DNA of 63,087 nt, counting the filler, from Collodictyon triciliatum (taxonomy: Eukaryota): NCBI GenBank assembly GCA_043381765.1. It is 53 parts of 53 records of this genome, joined end to end, with 100 filler letters (N's around TTAATTAATTAA, not from the genome) between each part and the next. Parts side by side here need not be neighbours in the genome. Positions count along the whole stretch, not along the records: positions 32,838 to 33,906 come from JBHJMP010012430.1; positions 34,007 to 35,075 come from JBHJMP010012431.1; positions 35,176 to 36,244 come from JBHJMP010012432.1; positions 36,345 to 37,413 come from JBHJMP010012433.1; 49 more parts are not named here. One strand, written 5' to 3'. The translations under genes were made by a program, and so were the position numbers. Each line of letters starts with the position of its first letter. Position 1 is the first letter of the stretch. This document shows, one piece after another, positions 32,838 to 36,640 of the stretch. Below the pieces are notes generated by a model. The model did no database searches. It worked only from the letters and a program-made list of their open reading frames with translations, and had not been told where the DNA came from.

Positions 32838-33628
32838 TCTTTTAGCTTCTTCAGCTTTTCTAGCTTCAGCTCTTTTAACTTCTTCAGCTTTTTTGGCTTC
32901 TTCAGCTCTTCTGGCTTCAGCTCTTTTAGCTTCTTCAGCTTTTTTAGCTTCCGCTGCGGTATCGACCTAGGGTTATGTTAGTTGTGTCCTGTGTTGTGTA
33001 TGTGGGGGTTGGGGGTGGATGTGTGCTTACGGGGTCGTAGAGCTGCAGCTTTCGGAGGGCCTCGGCAAAGTTAAATTTCATCTCAGAATATGGTTTCTTT
33101 GTGTTATTCCAGCAGGGGAGATTTGAGATGCCACGCGGGGCTCTCTTTATGGTTTGTGTGCCCTCCAATTCGATGTAGAGTTCTTTCAGATTTGTGAGTG
33201 CTGTGATCTGTGCTGGAAGCTCCTCCATCTGCGTGTATCGTTTTCAGTCACTTTTCTTTTAAACATAATAGTAATATAATATATGAATAAAAACATACCG
33301 GATTGTCACATACAATAAGAAGACTGAGACGAGTCAAACACGATATTTGTGCAGGTAGCGATGACAGCTGATTGTCACCAAGATAAAGTTCTATGAGACC
33401 AGTCAAACACGATATTTGTGCAGGTAGTGATGACAGCTGATTGCCACCAAGATACAATTCTTTCAGGCCAGTCAACAAAAAAACACCAGGCGGCACAGAT
33501 GACAGTTTTTTGTCACTGAGATCCAGATATGTGGAGCTTTTTAGGGTGGCAATATCAGGATCCCCAGAGAGTTTCCGGACTTCTTCCAAAAGCGCATCCA
33601 CTTGGGCAGGTGTGAGATAGTCAGACAT
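32838..33628 (-). CDS. LRR protein, paralog A: five 23-aa LRRs then AEEAKK/R coiled-coil repeats (exons 33299-33628, 33031-33228, <32838-32966)
   Basis: LKELYLGGNQLSSLPAQISCLTG repeats. Phase-0 GT-AG introns. Third exon VDTAAEAKKAEEAKRAEARRAEEAKKAEEVKRAEARKAEEAKR. Confidence 0.92.
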
Positions 33629-34297
33629 CAGGACAGATTCCGGCTGTATATATGGGTAGACTGACTGGGTGTCAATACAATACACATCATTTATTTGTTT
33701 TATAAGTGGACTTGACAATCATACAGGACAATATCACTCGAATCAGGATGGTGGGGTTGTGCACACGGAGATCAGAAAGTACTTTGTGAATAAAAAAAAA
33801 AGAGGCAAGGATTTCGACAAGACGAGGTTAAATATCCCGCAAAGGCCGGCGGATTTTTCAGAGAAGACGACTTGTGCAGAACTTGTGTGCTTGTGCTTCC
33901 TTGGAANNNNNNNNNNNNNNNNNNNNNNNNNNNNNNNNNNNNNNNNNNNNTTAATTAATTAANNNNNNNNNNNNNNNNNNNNNNNNNNNNNNNNNNNNNN
34001 NNNNNNAGAATAAAACAGAATAAAACAGAATAAAACAGAATAAAACAGAATAAAACAGAATAAAACAGAATAAAACAGAATAAAACAGAATAAAACAGAA
34101 TAAAACAGAATAAAACAGAATAAAACAGAATAAAACAGAATAAAACAGAATAAAACAGAATAAAACAGAATAAAACACAATAAAACACAATAAAACACAA
34201 TAAAACACAATAAAACACAATAAAACACAATAAAACAGAATAAACCAGTATAAAACATAATAAAACACAATAAATACGCACATATCCCAACTCTCAG

Positions 34298-34806
34298 GTG
34301 GAAAGACGGCGCCAACCCGAACCAATGAGCTACTTACCGCGATGCTGACCCGAACAACCGCCACAGAAGACACATCGAGTAGCGAATCCAATACAGCGCC
34401 AGGAAACGTGACTTTTGCAGGAAGCTCGAAGCAACGCCCGTTGCCACCGACACAAAAGCCCATGCCGATGCCGATGCCGATGCCAACACTAACACACTTG
34501 GGCTCCAGTGAATCTGCCCTGCGAAACGCAACTGCGGCCCCGCCTCGACCCGCAAAGCCGCCGCCTGCTCCAACAAGAGAGGAACTCCTTCGCTCGCCTC
34601 CGGTCGCCGCCGCACAAAATCCGCCGCCACTTCCGTCTGCTCCACCGCCTCCGGTGCCTGCGCTGCCCAACGCTCGCTCTCATCCTTCATATCTGCCTTC
34701 GCCTTCTCAGTCACATCCGCATCTTCAGTCACCGTCTGCTTCTCCATCTGCCTCTCCTAATGCGCTGCCTGCTGTCCTTCCCAGAAAAAACCGGCGTCGC
34801 ACAGTG
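34298..34806 (+). CDS. Proline-rich low-complexity protein exon
   Basis: GC-rich open frame between a CAG acceptor and a GT donor. RPLPPT, PPRPAKPPPAP and PPPLPSAPPPPVPALP are SH3-ligand-like. Confidence 0.65.
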
Positions 34807-35175
34807 GTCTGTCATTTTCCCATTTTTTTCATTCTCGTTTTTAATTATTTCGTTTCTTCGTTTAGTGTTTGCTCGACTCTGTCCGAGTTTTATCTTTGTT
34901 TCGTTTTTAGTAGAAAGGGTGTTCATTTACTTTATTTTACTCTACTTTCTTTTCTTTTCTCTTCCTTACTCTTGTCTCTTGTCTCTTGTCTCTTGTCTCT
35001 TGTCTCTTGTCTCTTGTCTCTTGTCTCTTGTCTCTTGTCTCTTGTCTCTTGTCTCTTGTCTCTTGTCTCTTGTCTNNNNNNNNNNNNNNNNNNNNNNNNN
35101 NNNNNNNNNNNNNNNNNNNTTAATTAATTAANNNNNNNNNNNNNNNNNNNNNNNNNNNNNNNNNNNNNNNNNNNN

Positions 35176-35766
35176 TAGAGCTTCAGCTTTCGGAGAGCGT
35201 CGGCAAAGTTCAGTGTCATCTGAGAATAAGGTTTCTCCGTGTTATTCCAGCAGGGGAGATTTGAGATGCCACGCGGGGCTCTCTTTATGGTTTGTGTGCC
35301 CTCCCATTCGATGTAGAGACTTTTCAGATTTGTGAGGGCTGTGATCTGTGCTGGAAGCTCCTCCATCTGCGTGTATCGTTGTCAGTCATTTTCTTTTAAA
35401 CACAAATAGTAATATAATATATGAATAAAAACATACCGGGTTTATGCATACATCAAGATATGTGAGACCAGTCAAACACGATATTTGTGCAGGTAGTGAC
35501 GACAACTGATTGTTATCAAGACCCAATTCTTCCAGACCAGTCAAACACGATATTTGTGCAGGTAGTGATGACAGCTGATTGCCACCAAGACCCAATACTT
35601 TCAGACCAGTCAACAGAAAAACACCAGGCGGCACAGATGACAGATTCTTGATACTGAGATTCAGAAATGTGGATCTTTTTAGAGTGGCAATATCAGGTTT
35701 CCTAGAAAGTTTCCGGACTTCTTCCATCAGCGCATCCACTTGGGCAGGTGTGAGACAGTCGGACAT
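35176..35766 (-). CDS. LRR protein, paralog B (exons 35437-35766, <35176-35366)
   Basis: Colinear with paralog A, including the 70-nt intron and over 270 nt of upstream flank. Confidence 0.92.
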
Positions 35767-36640
35767 CTGGACAGATTCCGGCTGTATATATGGGTGGACT
35801 GGCTGGGTGTCAATACAATACACATCATTTATTTGTTTTATGAGTGGACTTGACAATCACACAGGACAGAATAACTCGAGTCAGGATGGGGGTTGTGCAC
35901 ACAGAGATCAGAAAGTTCTTTGTGAATAAAAAAAGAAGAAAGGATTTCGACAAGACGAGGTTAAATATCCCGCAAAGGCCGGCGGATTTTTCAGAGAAGA
36001 CGACTTGTGCAGAACTTGTGTGCTTGTGCTTCCTTGGAAATTCACCGGTTCGGGGTTGGCCACAGCCAAGGTTGACCTCTTGCATCGAAAGTCTTGGGAA
36101 TAGCCGGGTGCTTGTCGCGTGCGTCACCGGGCGTCACCAAAGACCTGGGAATTGCCATATGGTTGGGAATACTGGGGGTGGCCACATGAGTCGCGTTGGT
36201 GCGGAGGAGTTGCTGCATGTTGGTGGGTTTCCTGAATCACCTGCNNNNNNNNNNNNNNNNNNNNNNNNNNNNNNNNNNNNNNNNNNNNTTAATTAATTAA
36301 NNNNNNNNNNNNNNNNNNNNNNNNNNNNNNNNNNNNNNNNNNNNTAAAAAACAAATAAAAAACAAATAAAAAACAAATAAAAAACAAATAAAAAACAAAT
36401 AAAAAACAAATAAAAAACAAATAAAAAACAAATAAAAAACTAACCAAAAAACCCCCCTCCACCCTGCTTTCTATTCCCCTTCTCTCCTATGCCACTCTTT
36501 TAGGCTTCTAAAAGAGTCTTAGCGATCTCGTGGTATCATAGACACGCCTCTTTCGACAGTCCCCTCTAGAAGGATCAAGAGACCAAGAGATCAAGAGACC
36601 AAGAGATCAAGAGACAAAGCACCCGAGTTGAGGGAAGGCG

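What the first reader, a model, noticed from the sequence alone, without database searches (positions are those of the whole stretch)
32838..36040. Candidate variable LRR receptor system: paralogs differ almost only on the ligand-binding face
Seen (hand alignment of paralog A 33031-33628 with B 35176-35766): the intron and upstream flank are roughly 95% identical. The LRR scaffold differs at ~11 of 192 nt and 2 of 64 residues. The five xxLxLxx windows differ at ~29 of 105 nt and 15 of 25 exposed x residues: TYLDLSD/TFLNLSI, KELYLGG/KVLGLGG, IELYLGD/EELGLDN, SLLIVCD/TYLDVCI, KELYIEL/KSLYIEW. Known: these x positions form the concave binding surface that diversifies in plant NLRs and lamprey VLRs. 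The protein has no evident signal peptide and continues into an AEEAKK coiled-coil stalk. Inference: a rapidly diversifying intracellular recognition repertoire in a protist. The downstream effector domain is not visible, and only two copies are compared.
Basis: partly seen in the sequence, partly recalled or inferred. Interest (0 to 1): 0.8.

Follow-up and report, generated by a model that had tools for sequence, protein, structure and literature searches.

The report
Hypervariable cytosolic LRR gene family
Two short contigs of an unidentified freshwater eukaryote carry copies of a small leucine-rich-repeat gene that are nearly identical except at the residues expected to touch a ligand, the pattern of a fast-diversifying recognition family, a kind already known from a few algae, ciliates and fungi.

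Summary
The two copies differ at 15 of 25 exposed "x" residues of five xxLxLxx windows. Only 2 of 74 other residues in the LRR region differ (Fisher p = 1.6e-9).

Non-synonymous change at x codons (25/62 sites) exceeds gene-wide synonymous change (20/127, p = 4e-4). The scaffold is under strong purifying selection.

The window is an artificial chain of 54 unrelated ~1.07 kb contigs. A and B are therefore separate contigs. Nothing is known about linkage, and the contig between them is unrelated.

Laying four public runs on copy A put 229, 196, 22 and 24 short contigs on it. Eleven contigs join at the predicted exon-2 edge. At least eight further window variants appear. This points to an expressed, multi-copy family.

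The LRRs are of the cytosolic SHOC2 type. I saw no signal peptide or cysteine caps. The AEEAKK continuation depends on an unverified 64-nt intron.

An immune function is inference only. No close relative exists in any held library. Precedents are the Ectocarpus ROCO-LRRs, Tetrahymena LRRs and fungal HNWD repeats. Verdict: a new member of a known kind, of moderate interest.

The parts
33629..33906 (-). Copy A, 5' flank (278 nt to contig end)
   Evidence: Aligns to copy B with 12 mismatches in 273 nt plus 5 gap columns. The distal 100 nt are identical. No ORF in gene orientation.
33299..33628 (-). Copy A, exon 1: 110 codons, N-terminal helix-like 31 aa then LRR1 to the start of LRR4
   Evidence: LRR_8 E = 2.5e-14, LRR_4 E = 4.1e-10. 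In-register alignment with SHOC2 chain 7t7a_A.
33512..33532 (-). Copy A, variable window 1 (TYLDLSD)
33443..33463 (-). Copy A, variable window 2 (KELYLGG)
33374..33394 (-). Copy A, variable window 3 (IELYLGD)
   Evidence: 8 of the 38 distinct variant places listed by read laying fall here (table 3).
33305..33325 (-). Copy A, variable window 4 (SLLIVCD)
   Evidence: Replaced by 25-28 nt of different letters in spliced contigs of runs X1 and X2 (table 5c).
33229..33298 (-). Copy A, intron 1 (70 nt, phase 0, GTATG..CAG)
   Evidence: One X2 contig removes it exactly. In all, 11 contigs (7 in X1, 4 in X2) have a joint at 33228/33229 (table 5). Depth drops in the intron bins (table 2).
33031..33228 (-). 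Copy A, exon 2: 66 codons, rest of LRR4, LRR5, a degenerate LRR and a C-terminal helix-like end
   Evidence: Pfam LRR_14 E = 0.0038, below cutoff. Atlas features resemble irregular plant R-protein LRRs, a lead only.
33166..33186 (-). Copy A, variable window 5 (KELYIEL)
   Evidence: At 33167 most run depth carries the letter that copy B has (Trp, not Leu) (table 3).
32967..33030 (-). Copy A, putative intron 2 (64 nt, GT..AG, CA-rich), unverified
   Evidence: If it is not spliced, the frame stops after 31 more codons. No spliced joint was listed here.
32838..32966 (-). Copy A, putative exon 3: 43 codons of A/E/K/R-rich repeat (AEEAKK...), running off the contig
   Evidence: translation; 51-nt (17-aa) unit, 2.2 copies, 91% matches. 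Two of three frames are open. A 3-nt insertion relative to A is seen in most run depth at 32863 (table 4).
35767..36244 (-). Copy B, 5' flank (478 nt to contig end)
   Evidence: No ORF in gene orientation. GC 0.56-0.64 in the distal 200 nt. An open frame of 133 codons lies on the opposite strand (35844-36242, +); it was not sent to Pfam.
35437..35766 (-). Copy B, exon 1 (110 codons)
   Evidence: LRR_4 E = 6.9e-14, LRR_8 E = 2e-13.
35650..35670 (-). Copy B, variable window 1 (TFLNLSI)
35581..35601 (-). Copy B, variable window 2 (KVLGLGG)
35512..35532 (-). Copy B, variable window 3 (EELGLDN)
35443..35463 (-). Copy B, variable window 4 (TYLDVCI)
35367..35436 (-). Copy B, intron 1 (70 nt)
35176..35366 (-). 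Copy B, exon 2, cut by the contig end after 63 codons
35304..35324 (-). Copy B, variable window 5 (KSLYIEW)

Best explanation
A and B are two members of a multi-copy, expressed gene family in an unidentified, probably freshwater, eukaryote.

The protein: each gene encodes a small protein without a signal peptide. It has a ~31-residue N-terminal helix-like segment, then five regular 23-residue LRRs of the cytosolic SHOC2/RSU1/ROCO type and one degenerate repeat. An A/E/K/R-rich helical repeat may follow; what comes after that is unknown.

How the copies differ: family members keep promoter-proximal DNA, intron and LRR scaffold codons almost identical. They carry different residues at positions 1, 2, 4, 6 and 7 of each xxLxLxx beta-strand. 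In solved LRR proteins this is the concave, ligand-contacting face (established knowledge).

Proposed mechanism:
- Step 1: gene duplication with homogenisation of scaffold and flanks, by recent duplication and/or gene conversion or unequal crossing-over.
- Step 2: positive diversifying selection on point substitutions at the contact residues.
- Result: a germline repertoire of cytosolic binding proteins with many specificities.

Shown here: the gene model through exon 2, the LRR class, the multi-copy state, the position-specific excess of non-synonymous change, and spliced forms in run contigs.

Inferred: the homogenisation mechanism, that the variable face binds ligands, that the ligands are foreign (immune-like) rather than endogenous, and everything downstream of exon 2.
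For: - LRR identity and register: Pfam LRR_8 E = 2.5e-14 and 2e-13 for A and B. The best solved relative by sequence is SHOC2 (E = 2.7e-48), aligned in register with LxxLxLxxNxLxxLPxxI.
- Position-specific variation: x residues 15/25 changed against 2/74 other residues of the LRR region (p = 1.6e-9). x codons changed at 27/75 nt against 2/30 nt for the interleaved L codons.
- Selection by Nei-Gojobori: omega 3.0 at x codons and 0.07 in the scaffold, with dS about 0.16-0.19 in every part. pN(x) 25/62 against gene-wide pS 20/127, p = 4.4e-4. Scaffold pN 2/139.5 against pS 9/52.5, p = 1.8e-4. Changes at x codons fall at codon positions 1, 2 and 3 as 10, 13 and 4.
- Point substitution rather than cassette replacement: synonymous divergence inside the windows (dS 0.16) is no higher than in the scaffold, and the interleaved L codons are unchanged.
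- Multi-copy and expressed: 229, 196, 22 and 24 contigs of runs X1-X4 lie on the 1069 nt of copy A at 80% likeness or more. In X1 the split is 48 at >=99%, 61 at 95-99%, 76 at 90-95% and 44 below 90%.
- Splicing: 11 contigs have a joint at the exon-2 edge (table 5).
- More window variants: tables 5c and 7 give eight further windows after the constant scaffold. I decoded them by hand as TRLDVES, TRLDVDV, EVLFVFN, SILGVHV, QHFGVAG, TRLDIFL, TYLDVGC and TFLDVGG. Position 3 is L in 7 of 8 (F once) and position 5 is V or I in all 8, while the x positions vary.
- Where listed variants fall: of 38 distinct variant places listed in table 3, 14 lie in the five windows, which make up 105 of 1069 nt. Only the 40 best-supported of 192 rows were shown.
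- Internal repeat conservation: units R2 and R3 differ at 2-3 of 48 scaffold nt but 4-5 of 21 window nt within each copy. TRF finds a 69-nt unit at 90-91% matches.
- No secretion signals: Pfam gave only LRR families, with no LRRNT/LRRCT. The N-terminus is acidic and hydrophilic (by inspection).
Against: - Only two contiguous copies exist, and both are truncated.
- Within the x codons alone, pN against pS (25/62 against 2/13) is not significant (p = 0.12). The case for omega > 1 therefore leans on the gene-wide synonymous rate.
- A and B share identical runs of 100, 66, 57, 43 and 35 nt. A short-read assembler could have joined windows from different paralogs, so the haplotypes may be chimeric.
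- The run evidence comes from Logan contigs of coded runs whose RNA status is a guess. Contigs covering intron 1 and the 5' flank are also present, so DNA or intron-less paralogs cannot be excluded.
- Shares of copy A's words in the runs were at most 0.21. The exact copies were therefore not recovered elsewhere.
- No effector domain, ligand or induction evidence is available.
- 4-fold sites diverge more (12/84) than non-coding DNA (14/342, p = 0.0015; 14/242 without the identical distal 100 nt, p = 0.019). A simple recent-duplication model does not predict this.
- No close relative was found in any protein or contig library searched. The family size in the window's own organism is unknown.
Confidence: 0.7

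Rival explanations
1. The variable face is simply unconstrained. This would be a recently expanded family of cytosolic LRR adaptors with a shared, conserved function, whose solvent-exposed beta-strand residues drift neutrally while the scaffold is under purifying selection. There would be no recognition repertoire.
For: Exposed LRR positions are the least constrained in any LRR protein (established knowledge). Within the x codons, pN against pS is not significant (p = 0.12). The closest solved relatives are scaffolding or adaptor proteins (SHOC2, RSU1), not receptors.
Against: pN at x codons (0.40) is 2.5 times the gene-wide pS (0.16; p = 4.4e-4) and about 10 times the non-coding divergence (14/342; p = 1e-13). 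Neutral drift cannot exceed the neutral rate. Codon positions 1 and 2 carry 23 of the 27 changes. Eight further windows in the runs are all different at x positions.
Confidence: 0.12
2. A and B are alleles or strain variants of one or a few loci kept apart by balancing selection, for example a mating or self/non-self locus. The sample would then be a diploid or a mixed population rather than the source of a large paralog family.
For: A and B are collinear with near-identical flanks and intron. Exon synonymous divergence exceeds that of the intron and flank; from my knowledge, this pattern is known from MHC-type balanced loci. The window's contigs vary widely in GC (0.245-0.568), so a mixed sample is possible.
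Against: About 200 contigs per run lie on 1 kb, across four likeness classes. At least four different letter strings replace window 4 in run X1 alone, and two more in X2. That is more than two alleles, unless those runs are population samples, which I cannot check.
Confidence: 0.1
3. The windows are diversified by templated patch exchange, that is short-tract gene conversion or cassette shuffling among many paralogs, possibly even somatically. This would be closer to lamprey VLR assembly or fungal repeat shuffling than to point mutation plus selection.
For: The scaffold is identical at the nucleotide level for 41-57 nt on each side of the windows, within and between copies. That gives ample homology for exchange. 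Divergence is mosaic: the distal 100 nt of the flank has 0 differences and the proximal 173 nt has 12. Non-coding DNA is more similar than 4-fold sites, as expected if flanks are homogenised. The fungal precedent combines shuffling with selection (PMC1805685, passages read).
Against: Synonymous divergence inside the windows is not raised, and the interleaved L codons are unchanged (2/30 nt). Whole-window replacement from old cassettes would change them too. No cassette arrays or incomplete germline genes are visible in 1-kb contigs. Somatic change is untestable here.
Confidence: 0.06
4. Assembly artefact: one or both contigs are chimeras stitched from several paralogs, or collapsed repeats. 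On this view the A/B contrast does not describe two real genes.
For: Both contigs end inside sequence shared with other copies: A at the start of the 100-nt identical flank and in the AEEAKK repeat, B inside exon 2. The family fragments into contigs of roughly 100-170 nt in Logan assemblies (table 8).
Against: Both reading frames are intact over 173 codons with the same intron position and length. Even if phasing is wrong, each window variant is real sequence, and the contrast between x positions and scaffold does not depend on phasing.
Confidence: 0.02

Closest known systems
Ectocarpus (brown alga) ROCO-LRR candidate receptors (PMC3341825, passages read; PMC11378527, search listing only)
   Same: A non-animal, non-plant eukaryote with a cytosolic LRR family. 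Positively selected sites map to the concave LRR face. It is interpreted as a candidate immune repertoire. The best 'longer' database hits of exon 1 include many LRR-Roc-COR proteins at about 50% identity.
   Different: In Ectocarpus each LRR is a separate 72-nt exon and diversity comes from exon shuffling. Here 3.5 LRRs share one 330-nt exon and the repeat is 69 nt. No Roc-COR domain is visible; the contigs end first.
Podospora HNWD / fungal NLR repeats with high internal conservation (PMC1805685, passages; PMC4986451, passages)
   Same: Repeat units are nearly identical at the DNA level within and between family members. Hypervariability is confined to a few surface codons per repeat, under positive diversifying selection. 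The explanation there is concerted evolution plus selection.
   Different: The fungal repeats are WD, ANK or TPR; no LRRs were found in fungal NLRs. They sit C-terminal to NACHT or NB-ARC domains. Here the LRRs are N-terminal, only two of about six units are highly alike (R2/R3), and no NOD domain is seen.
Tetrahymena rapidly evolving LRR genes (PMC6564038, passages read)
   Same: A free-living freshwater protist with a very large, species-specific LRR family. Repeats are detectable at the nucleotide level. Unequal crossing-over is invoked. Function is unknown.
   Different: Tetrahymena uses arrays of exactly 90-bp exons with phase-2 introns and 30-residue repeats. Here the units are 23 residues long, are not split by exon, and the one verified intron is phase 0.
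SHOC2 / RSU1-type cytosolic LRR scaffolds (PDB 7t7a, 7d2s)
   Same: The same 23-residue LRR class (LxxLxLxxNxLxxLPxxIxxLxxL), cytosolic, without cysteine caps.
   Different: SHOC2 in the solved entries is a chain of about 500-585 residues with a long LRR solenoid and, from my knowledge, a single conserved gene. This is a short protein of about 6 LRRs, multi-copy, with hypervariable contact positions. It is not an ortholog: only repeat-level similarity, spread over 7 stretches of the same chain.
Lamprey/hagfish variable lymphocyte receptors
   Same: A short LRR solenoid whose concave beta-strand residues carry the diversity. VLR chains are found by sequence at E of about 1e-21 to 4e-23.
   Different: From my knowledge, VLRs are secreted or GPI-anchored, have cysteine-rich LRRNT/LRRCT caps, and are assembled somatically from cassettes. 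Here there is no signal peptide or caps (inspection), and complete germline exons are present.

Membership tests
Leucine-rich repeat superfamily (Pfam clan LRR) | Tandem 20-30-residue repeats with LxxLxLxxN/CxL | tested here: met
   LRR_8 E = 2.5e-14 (A) and 2e-13 (B), both above the 27-bit cutoff. LRR_4 E = 4.1e-10 and 6.9e-14. TRF finds a 69-nt period.
SHOC2/RSU1-like 'typical' cytosolic LRR class | 23-24-residue unit LxxLxLxxNxLxxLPxxIxxLxxL, no cysteine caps, no signal peptide | tested here: met
   In-register alignment to SHOC2 7t7a_A (E = 2.7e-48). No LRRNT/LRRCT in Pfam. Hydrophilic N-terminus (inspection).
SHOC2 orthologs | A long LRR solenoid in one conserved gene | tested here: not met
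   About 6 repeats in 173 codons. Multi-copy. Similarity is repeat-level only, spread over 7 stretches of the SHOC2 chain.
ROCO proteins | Roc GTPase plus COR domain next to the LRRs | not testable with these tools
   Contigs end 43 codons after exon 2 (A) or inside exon 2 (B). Many best 'longer' hits are LRR-Roc-COR proteins, but only at about 50% LRR identity.
NLR / STAND receptors (NB-ARC or NACHT + C-terminal repeats) | A central NOD domain N-terminal to the repeat domain | tested here: not met
   The LRRs start 31 residues after the ATG. There is no ORF in gene orientation in the 478 nt upstream of copy B. Pfam finds only LRR families. A downstream NOD cannot be excluded, but that would not be the NLR order.
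Agnathan VLR system | Signal peptide, LRRNT/LRRCT cysteine caps | tested here: not met
   Neither was found (inspection of the N-terminus).
Agnathan VLR system | An incomplete germline gene completed somatically from flanking LRR cassettes | tested here: inconclusive
   Both copies have complete LRR exons, which argues against it. Contigs of 1 kb cannot show cassettes, and somatic change is untestable here.
Ectocarpus-type exon-per-LRR shuffling genes | Each LRR encoded by its own 72-nt exon | tested here: not met
   Exon 1 is 330 nt and holds 3.5 LRRs. The only intron within the LRRs is after 'NP' of LRR4.
Tetrahymena 90-bp-exon LRR genes | Arrays of exactly 90-bp exons flanked by phase-2 introns | tested here: not met
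   Exons of 330 and 198 nt, with a phase-0 intron.
Repeat proteins with high internal conservation (fungal HNWD-like behaviour) | Repeat units over 85% identical over at least 100 aa in total (criterion in PMC4986451), with hypervariable surface codons | tested here: inconclusive
   R2 and R3 are 20/23 residues (my count from the translations) and 63/69 nt identical in A. That covers only about 46 aa. R1, R4 and R5 are more diverged. Hypervariable surface codons are present.

The most novel reading that the evidence does not exclude
This may be a protist LRR counterpart of the fungal 'highly internally conserved repeat' receptors. It would be a large pool of near-identical 69-nt LRR units that are continually exchanged between paralogs by gene conversion or unequal crossing-over, possibly also during clonal growth, while selection diversifies five contact codons per unit. 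The result would be a combinatorial intracellular recognition repertoire. The excess of synonymous over non-coding divergence would then be a footprint of exchange or targeted mutation in the exons.
Probability: 0.1. Interest if true: 0.85.

Novelty: new member of a known kind. Interest (0 to 1): 0.45.

Why it matters
Very little is known about how free-living unicellular eukaryotes recognise viruses, bacteria or each other.

A multi-copy, expressed family of small cytosolic LRR proteins, with variation confined to the ligand face, is a concrete candidate. It would add an LRR-based example to the few known non-animal, non-plant cases: the Ectocarpus ROCOs, the Tetrahymena LRRs and the fungal WD/ANK/TPR receptors.

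The genes are short (about 6 repeats). That would make binding studies and site-model tests easy once full-length copies are in hand.

As it stands, the evidence shows diversifying evolution. It does not show function.

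Tried and rejected
- Whole genome: none is held for this window.
- Earlier scan notes: nothing by place, sequence or words.
- Close relatives in protein libraries:
  - Exon 1, 'longer' class: 297 hits, the best at 50-60% identity, all generic LRR, ROCO or other proteins.
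  - Exon 1, 'near' class: 5 weak hits.
  - Representative library: 73,671 hits at E <= 0.001. All 150 listed are long repeat proteins at 56% identity or less.
  - Exon 2, 'longer' class: none.
- DNA relatives:
  - The search for related loci in metagenome contigs chose N-terminal peptides. 592 pattern matches, none confirmed.
  - A codon-degenerate pattern for the constant peptide gave 0 matches in metagenome contigs, genome contigs and viral contigs.
- Rfam on the whole window: no match.
- Other family members in the window: only A and B. One unrelated weak LRR fragment lies in contig 55024-56090 (tblastn E = 4e-5, 36% identity).
- Taxonomic placement:
  - Pfam on 9 long ORFs gave Ephrin_rec_like, NCD3G, TNFR_ELAPOR1_6th, and sub-cutoff LRR_4 and DUF7630.
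  - Pfam on 116 further ORFs gave only one TACO1_YebC_N hit.
  - The atlas on the Ephrin-like ORF gave scores of 0.81 or less.
  - The lineage stays unknown.
- Structure: AlphaFold2 of exon 1 with the two-row alignment gave mean pLDDT 61 and pTM 0.52. That is too poor for surface mapping or fold search, so I did not use it. I relied instead on the in-register SHOC2 sequence alignment.
- Atlas on exon 2: nearest clusters are plant disease-resistance-type irregular LRRs (0.91-0.96), but they share only 101-141 of 256 features. This is a lead, not evidence.
No habitat or expression claim is made from them.
- The 'skips ~165' joints first looked like copies with one LRR fewer. I rejected that reading. 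Short contigs align equally well or better to the consensus R2 scaffold than to A's R3 scaffold, so the joints show variant windows, not repeat number.
- No joint across putative intron 2 was listed. Contigs show presence, not absence, so this only leaves the intron unverified.
- DGR-like mutagenesis was considered and dropped. Substitutions at x codons are not adenine-specific (transitions 13, transversions 14, all base pairs represented). The gene also has a spliceosomal-type GT..AG intron.

Full report
**What the window is.** The 63,087-nt window is not one locus. It is 54 contigs of 1047-1082 nt, joined by runs of N around a TTAATTAATTAA linker and ordered by length. No whole genome is held. 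"Paralog A" is the contig 32838-33906 and "paralog B" is the contig 35176-36244. The contig between them (34007-35075) is unrelated. Adjacency, equal length (1069 nt) and any idea of clustering are artefacts of this layout.

**Anatomy.** Both copies lie on the minus strand.
- Copy A has its ATG at 33628. Exon 1 is 33628-33299 (330 nt), intron 1 is 33298-33229 (70 nt, phase 0, GTATG..CAG) and exon 2 is 33228-33031 (198 nt).
- Copy B has the same structure. The ATG is at 35766, exon 1 is 35766-35437 and the intron is 35436-35367. Exon 2 is cut at 35176 by the contig end.
- The protein starts with an acidic, hydrophilic 31-residue segment. By inspection there is no signal peptide.
- Five regular 23-residue LRRs follow, then a degenerate repeat and a short helix-like end.
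- Pfam finds only LRR families: LRR_8 at E = 2.5e-14 and 2e-13, plus LRR_4. There are no LRRNT/LRRCT caps.
- By sequence the nearest solved proteins are cytosolic. SHOC2 scores E = 2.7e-48 and aligns in register with LxxLxLxxNxLxxLPxxI. Leptospira LRR proteins, LRRD1 and RSU1 follow. VLRs appear much lower, at about 1e-21 to 4e-23.
- In copy A, exon 2 is followed by a GT..AG stretch of 64 nt (33030-32967). Then come 43 codons of A/E/K/R-rich repeat (AEEAKK...; 51-nt unit) that run off the contig.
- If that stretch is not spliced, the frame stops after 31 codons. No spliced contig across it was listed. The "stalk" is therefore plausible but unverified.
- Its composition (39 of 43 residues are A/E/K/R) looks to me more like an ER/K single helix than a classical coiled coil (my knowledge).
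- The 478 nt upstream of B hold no ORF in gene orientation.

**The observation.**
- Scaffold between windows: 11 of 192 nt and 2 of 64 residues differ.
- The five xxLxLxx windows: 29 of 105 nt and 15 of 25 x residues differ.
- Upstream flank: 12 mismatches in 273 aligned nt. Intron: 2 in 69.
- Clustering is not chance. Changes hit 15/25 x residues against 13/148 others (p = 3.5e-8). Within the LRR region it is 15/25 against 2/74 (p = 1.6e-9).
- The contrast holds at single-codon scale. x codons changed at 27 of 75 nt, while the L codons interleaved between them changed at 2 of 30 nt.

**Selection.**
- Nei-Gojobori estimates give dN/dS of 3.0 at x codons and 0.07 in the scaffold. dS is about 0.16-0.19 in every part of the gene.
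- Non-synonymous change at x codons (25/62 sites) exceeds the gene-wide synonymous rate (20/127, p = 4.4e-4), the 4-fold-site rate (12/84, p = 4.8e-4) and the non-coding rate (14/342, p = 1e-13).
- Inside the x codons alone the comparison (25/62 against 2/13) is not significant (p = 0.12).
- Synonymous divergence is not raised inside the windows and the interleaved L codons are unchanged. The simplest reading is selected point substitution, not replacement by old cassettes.

**An unexplained detail.**
- 4-fold sites are more diverged (12/84, 14%) than the flank plus intron (14/342, 4%; p = 0.0015).
- Without the distal 100 nt of flank, which are identical between the copies, the non-coding figure is 14/242 (p = 0.019).
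- Homogenisation of flanks by gene conversion, constraint on the flank, or linkage to selected sites could each explain this. Two copies cannot tell them apart.

**Is it a family?** Only A and B occur in the window. Four public runs that share words with copy A were laid on it at 80% likeness or more.
- The two small organism-labelled runs gave 229 (X1) and 196 (X2) contigs on 1069 nt, spread over all likeness classes (X1: 48/61/76/44).
- Two freshwater-metagenome runs gave 22 and 24 contigs. These include pieces identical to the 5' flank.
- Eleven contigs (7 in X1, 4 in X2) have a joint at 33228/33229, the predicted 5' edge of exon 2. One removes the 70-nt intron exactly.
- The others join exon 2 to a constant LRR scaffold through 25-28 letters that differ from contig to contig.
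- Decoded by hand, these and three loose ends give eight more windows: TRLDVES, TRLDVDV, EVLFVFN, SILGVHV, QHFGVAG, TRLDIFL, TYLDVGC and TFLDVGG. Position 3 is L in 7 of 8 (F once) and position 5 is V or I in all 8. Positions 1, 2, 4, 6 and 7 vary.
- Of the 38 distinct variant places listed, 14 fall in the five windows, which are 105 of 1069 nt. Only the 40 best-supported of 192 rows were shown.
- This is more than two alleles per run. It supports an expressed, or at least spliced, multi-copy family.

Caveats on the run evidence:
- The RNA status of X1 and X2 is a guess.
- Unspliced and 5'-flank contigs are also present.
- The runs hold at most 0.21 of copy A's words, so A itself was not recovered.
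- The "skip" joints do not show repeat-number variation, because short contigs align to either of the near-identical scaffolds.

**Assembly risk.** A and B share identical runs of 100, 66, 57, 43 and 35 nt. Both contigs end inside shared or repetitive sequence. The phasing of windows along a contig could therefore be chimeric. This does not affect the contrast between x positions and scaffold.

**Relatives elsewhere.** None are close.
- Exon 1 finds only generic LRR proteins, many of them LRR-Roc-COR, at about 50-60% identity.
- Exon 2 finds nothing.
- DNA and peptide patterns find nothing in the metagenome, prokaryote-genome or viral contig collections.
- The organism could not be placed. Other contigs yield Ephrin_rec_like/NCD3G/TNFR-like cysteine repeats, a sub-cutoff LRR plus DUF7630 fragment and one TACO1/YebC hit. 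Rfam finds nothing.
- Apparent removal of a GT..AG intron in run contigs marks it as a eukaryote.

**Mechanism proposed.** This is a germline family of small cytosolic LRR proteins.
- Duplication, with or without gene conversion, keeps the flanks, the intron and the scaffold codons alike.
- Diversifying selection changes the five contact residues of each beta-strand.
- The result is many binding specificities.
- The multi-copy state, the position-specific excess of non-synonymous change and the LRR class are shown.
- Ligand binding by that face rests on what is established for solved LRR proteins.
- An immune or non-self role, the homogenising process and the downstream domain are inference.

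**Comparison with known systems.**
- Functionally it resembles the Ectocarpus ROCO-LRRs, where positively selected sites lie on the concave face (PMC3341825).
- It also resembles the fungal HNWD/NLR repeats. These have near-identical repeat units, concerted evolution and four selected surface codons per WD repeat. No LRRs were found in fungal NLRs (PMC1805685 and PMC4986451).
- A third analogue is the large species-specific LRR family of Tetrahymena (PMC6564038).
- It is not a member of any of these. The exon structure differs from Ectocarpus and Tetrahymena. The repeat type and domain order differ from the fungal and NLR architectures.
- VLR hallmarks are absent: signal peptide and cysteine caps.
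- ROCO membership cannot be tested because the contigs end first.

**Verdict.** This is a new member of a known kind, a diversifying LRR family in a microbial eukaryote. Its function is unknown, the assembly is fragmentary, and one feature of the divergence pattern is unexplained.
- Interest: 0.45.
- Confidence in the diversifying-family reading: 0.7.
- An immune role specifically: about 0.25, by my judgement.

Noticed in passing
whole window (1-63087): The window is 54 unrelated contigs of 1047-1082 nt, joined by N runs around a TTAATTAATTAA linker and sorted by length. GC ranges from 0.245 to 0.568. Findings that span a linker do not describe real neighbours.
   Followed up: yes
34007-35075: The contig between A and B is unrelated. 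It starts with (AGAATAAAAC)x27 and ends with (CTCTTGT)x15. It carries a 270-codon open frame on the + strand (34264-35073) rich in Pro, Ser and Ala, with PMPMPMPMP and PPPP runs. Pfam gave no hit.
   Followed up: partly
8237-9309 and 50364-51430: Two high-GC contigs (0.53 and 0.57) are open in several frames on both strands. They show the same repeated peptide-like units (for example RSLLHTRPAKALHYAERR) in their translations. This looks like a shared GC-rich tandem satellite rather than genes.
   Followed up: no
5889-6959 (+): A 357-codon open frame fills the whole contig. It has six Ephrin_rec_like cysteine repeats (E = 3.5e-30), plus NCD3G and TNFR_ELAPOR1-like matches, so it is probably part of a large extracellular cysteine-rich protein. 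A similar weaker fragment lies at 39853-40368 (+).
   Followed up: partly
48028-48729 (-) and 55024-56090: Two other LRR fragments are unrelated to the A/B family. One has LRR_4 (23.1 bits) and DUF7630 (25.1 bits) matches, both below the 27-bit cutoff. The other matches copy A's protein at 36% identity (tblastn E = 4e-5).
   Followed up: partly
35844-36242 (+), opposite strand of copy B's 5' flank: A 133-codon open frame runs away from the LRR gene to the contig end, in a stretch with GC 0.56-0.64. It could be a divergently transcribed neighbour or only chance. The part shared with copy A is 100% identical over 100 nt. It was not sent to Pfam.
   Followed up: no
33662 (copy A 5' flank): In runs X1 and X2, two contigs each leave the reference at the same place, 34 nt upstream of the ATG, into the same 14-16 unmatched letters (table 7). 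This could be an alternative 5' end, an upstream exon or a paralog class.
   Followed up: no
4-fold sites of A/B exons against flank and intron: Synonymous divergence (12/84) is higher than non-coding divergence (14/342, p = 0.0015). This is unexplained. Candidates are homogenised flanks, constrained flanks or linked selection.
   Followed up: partly
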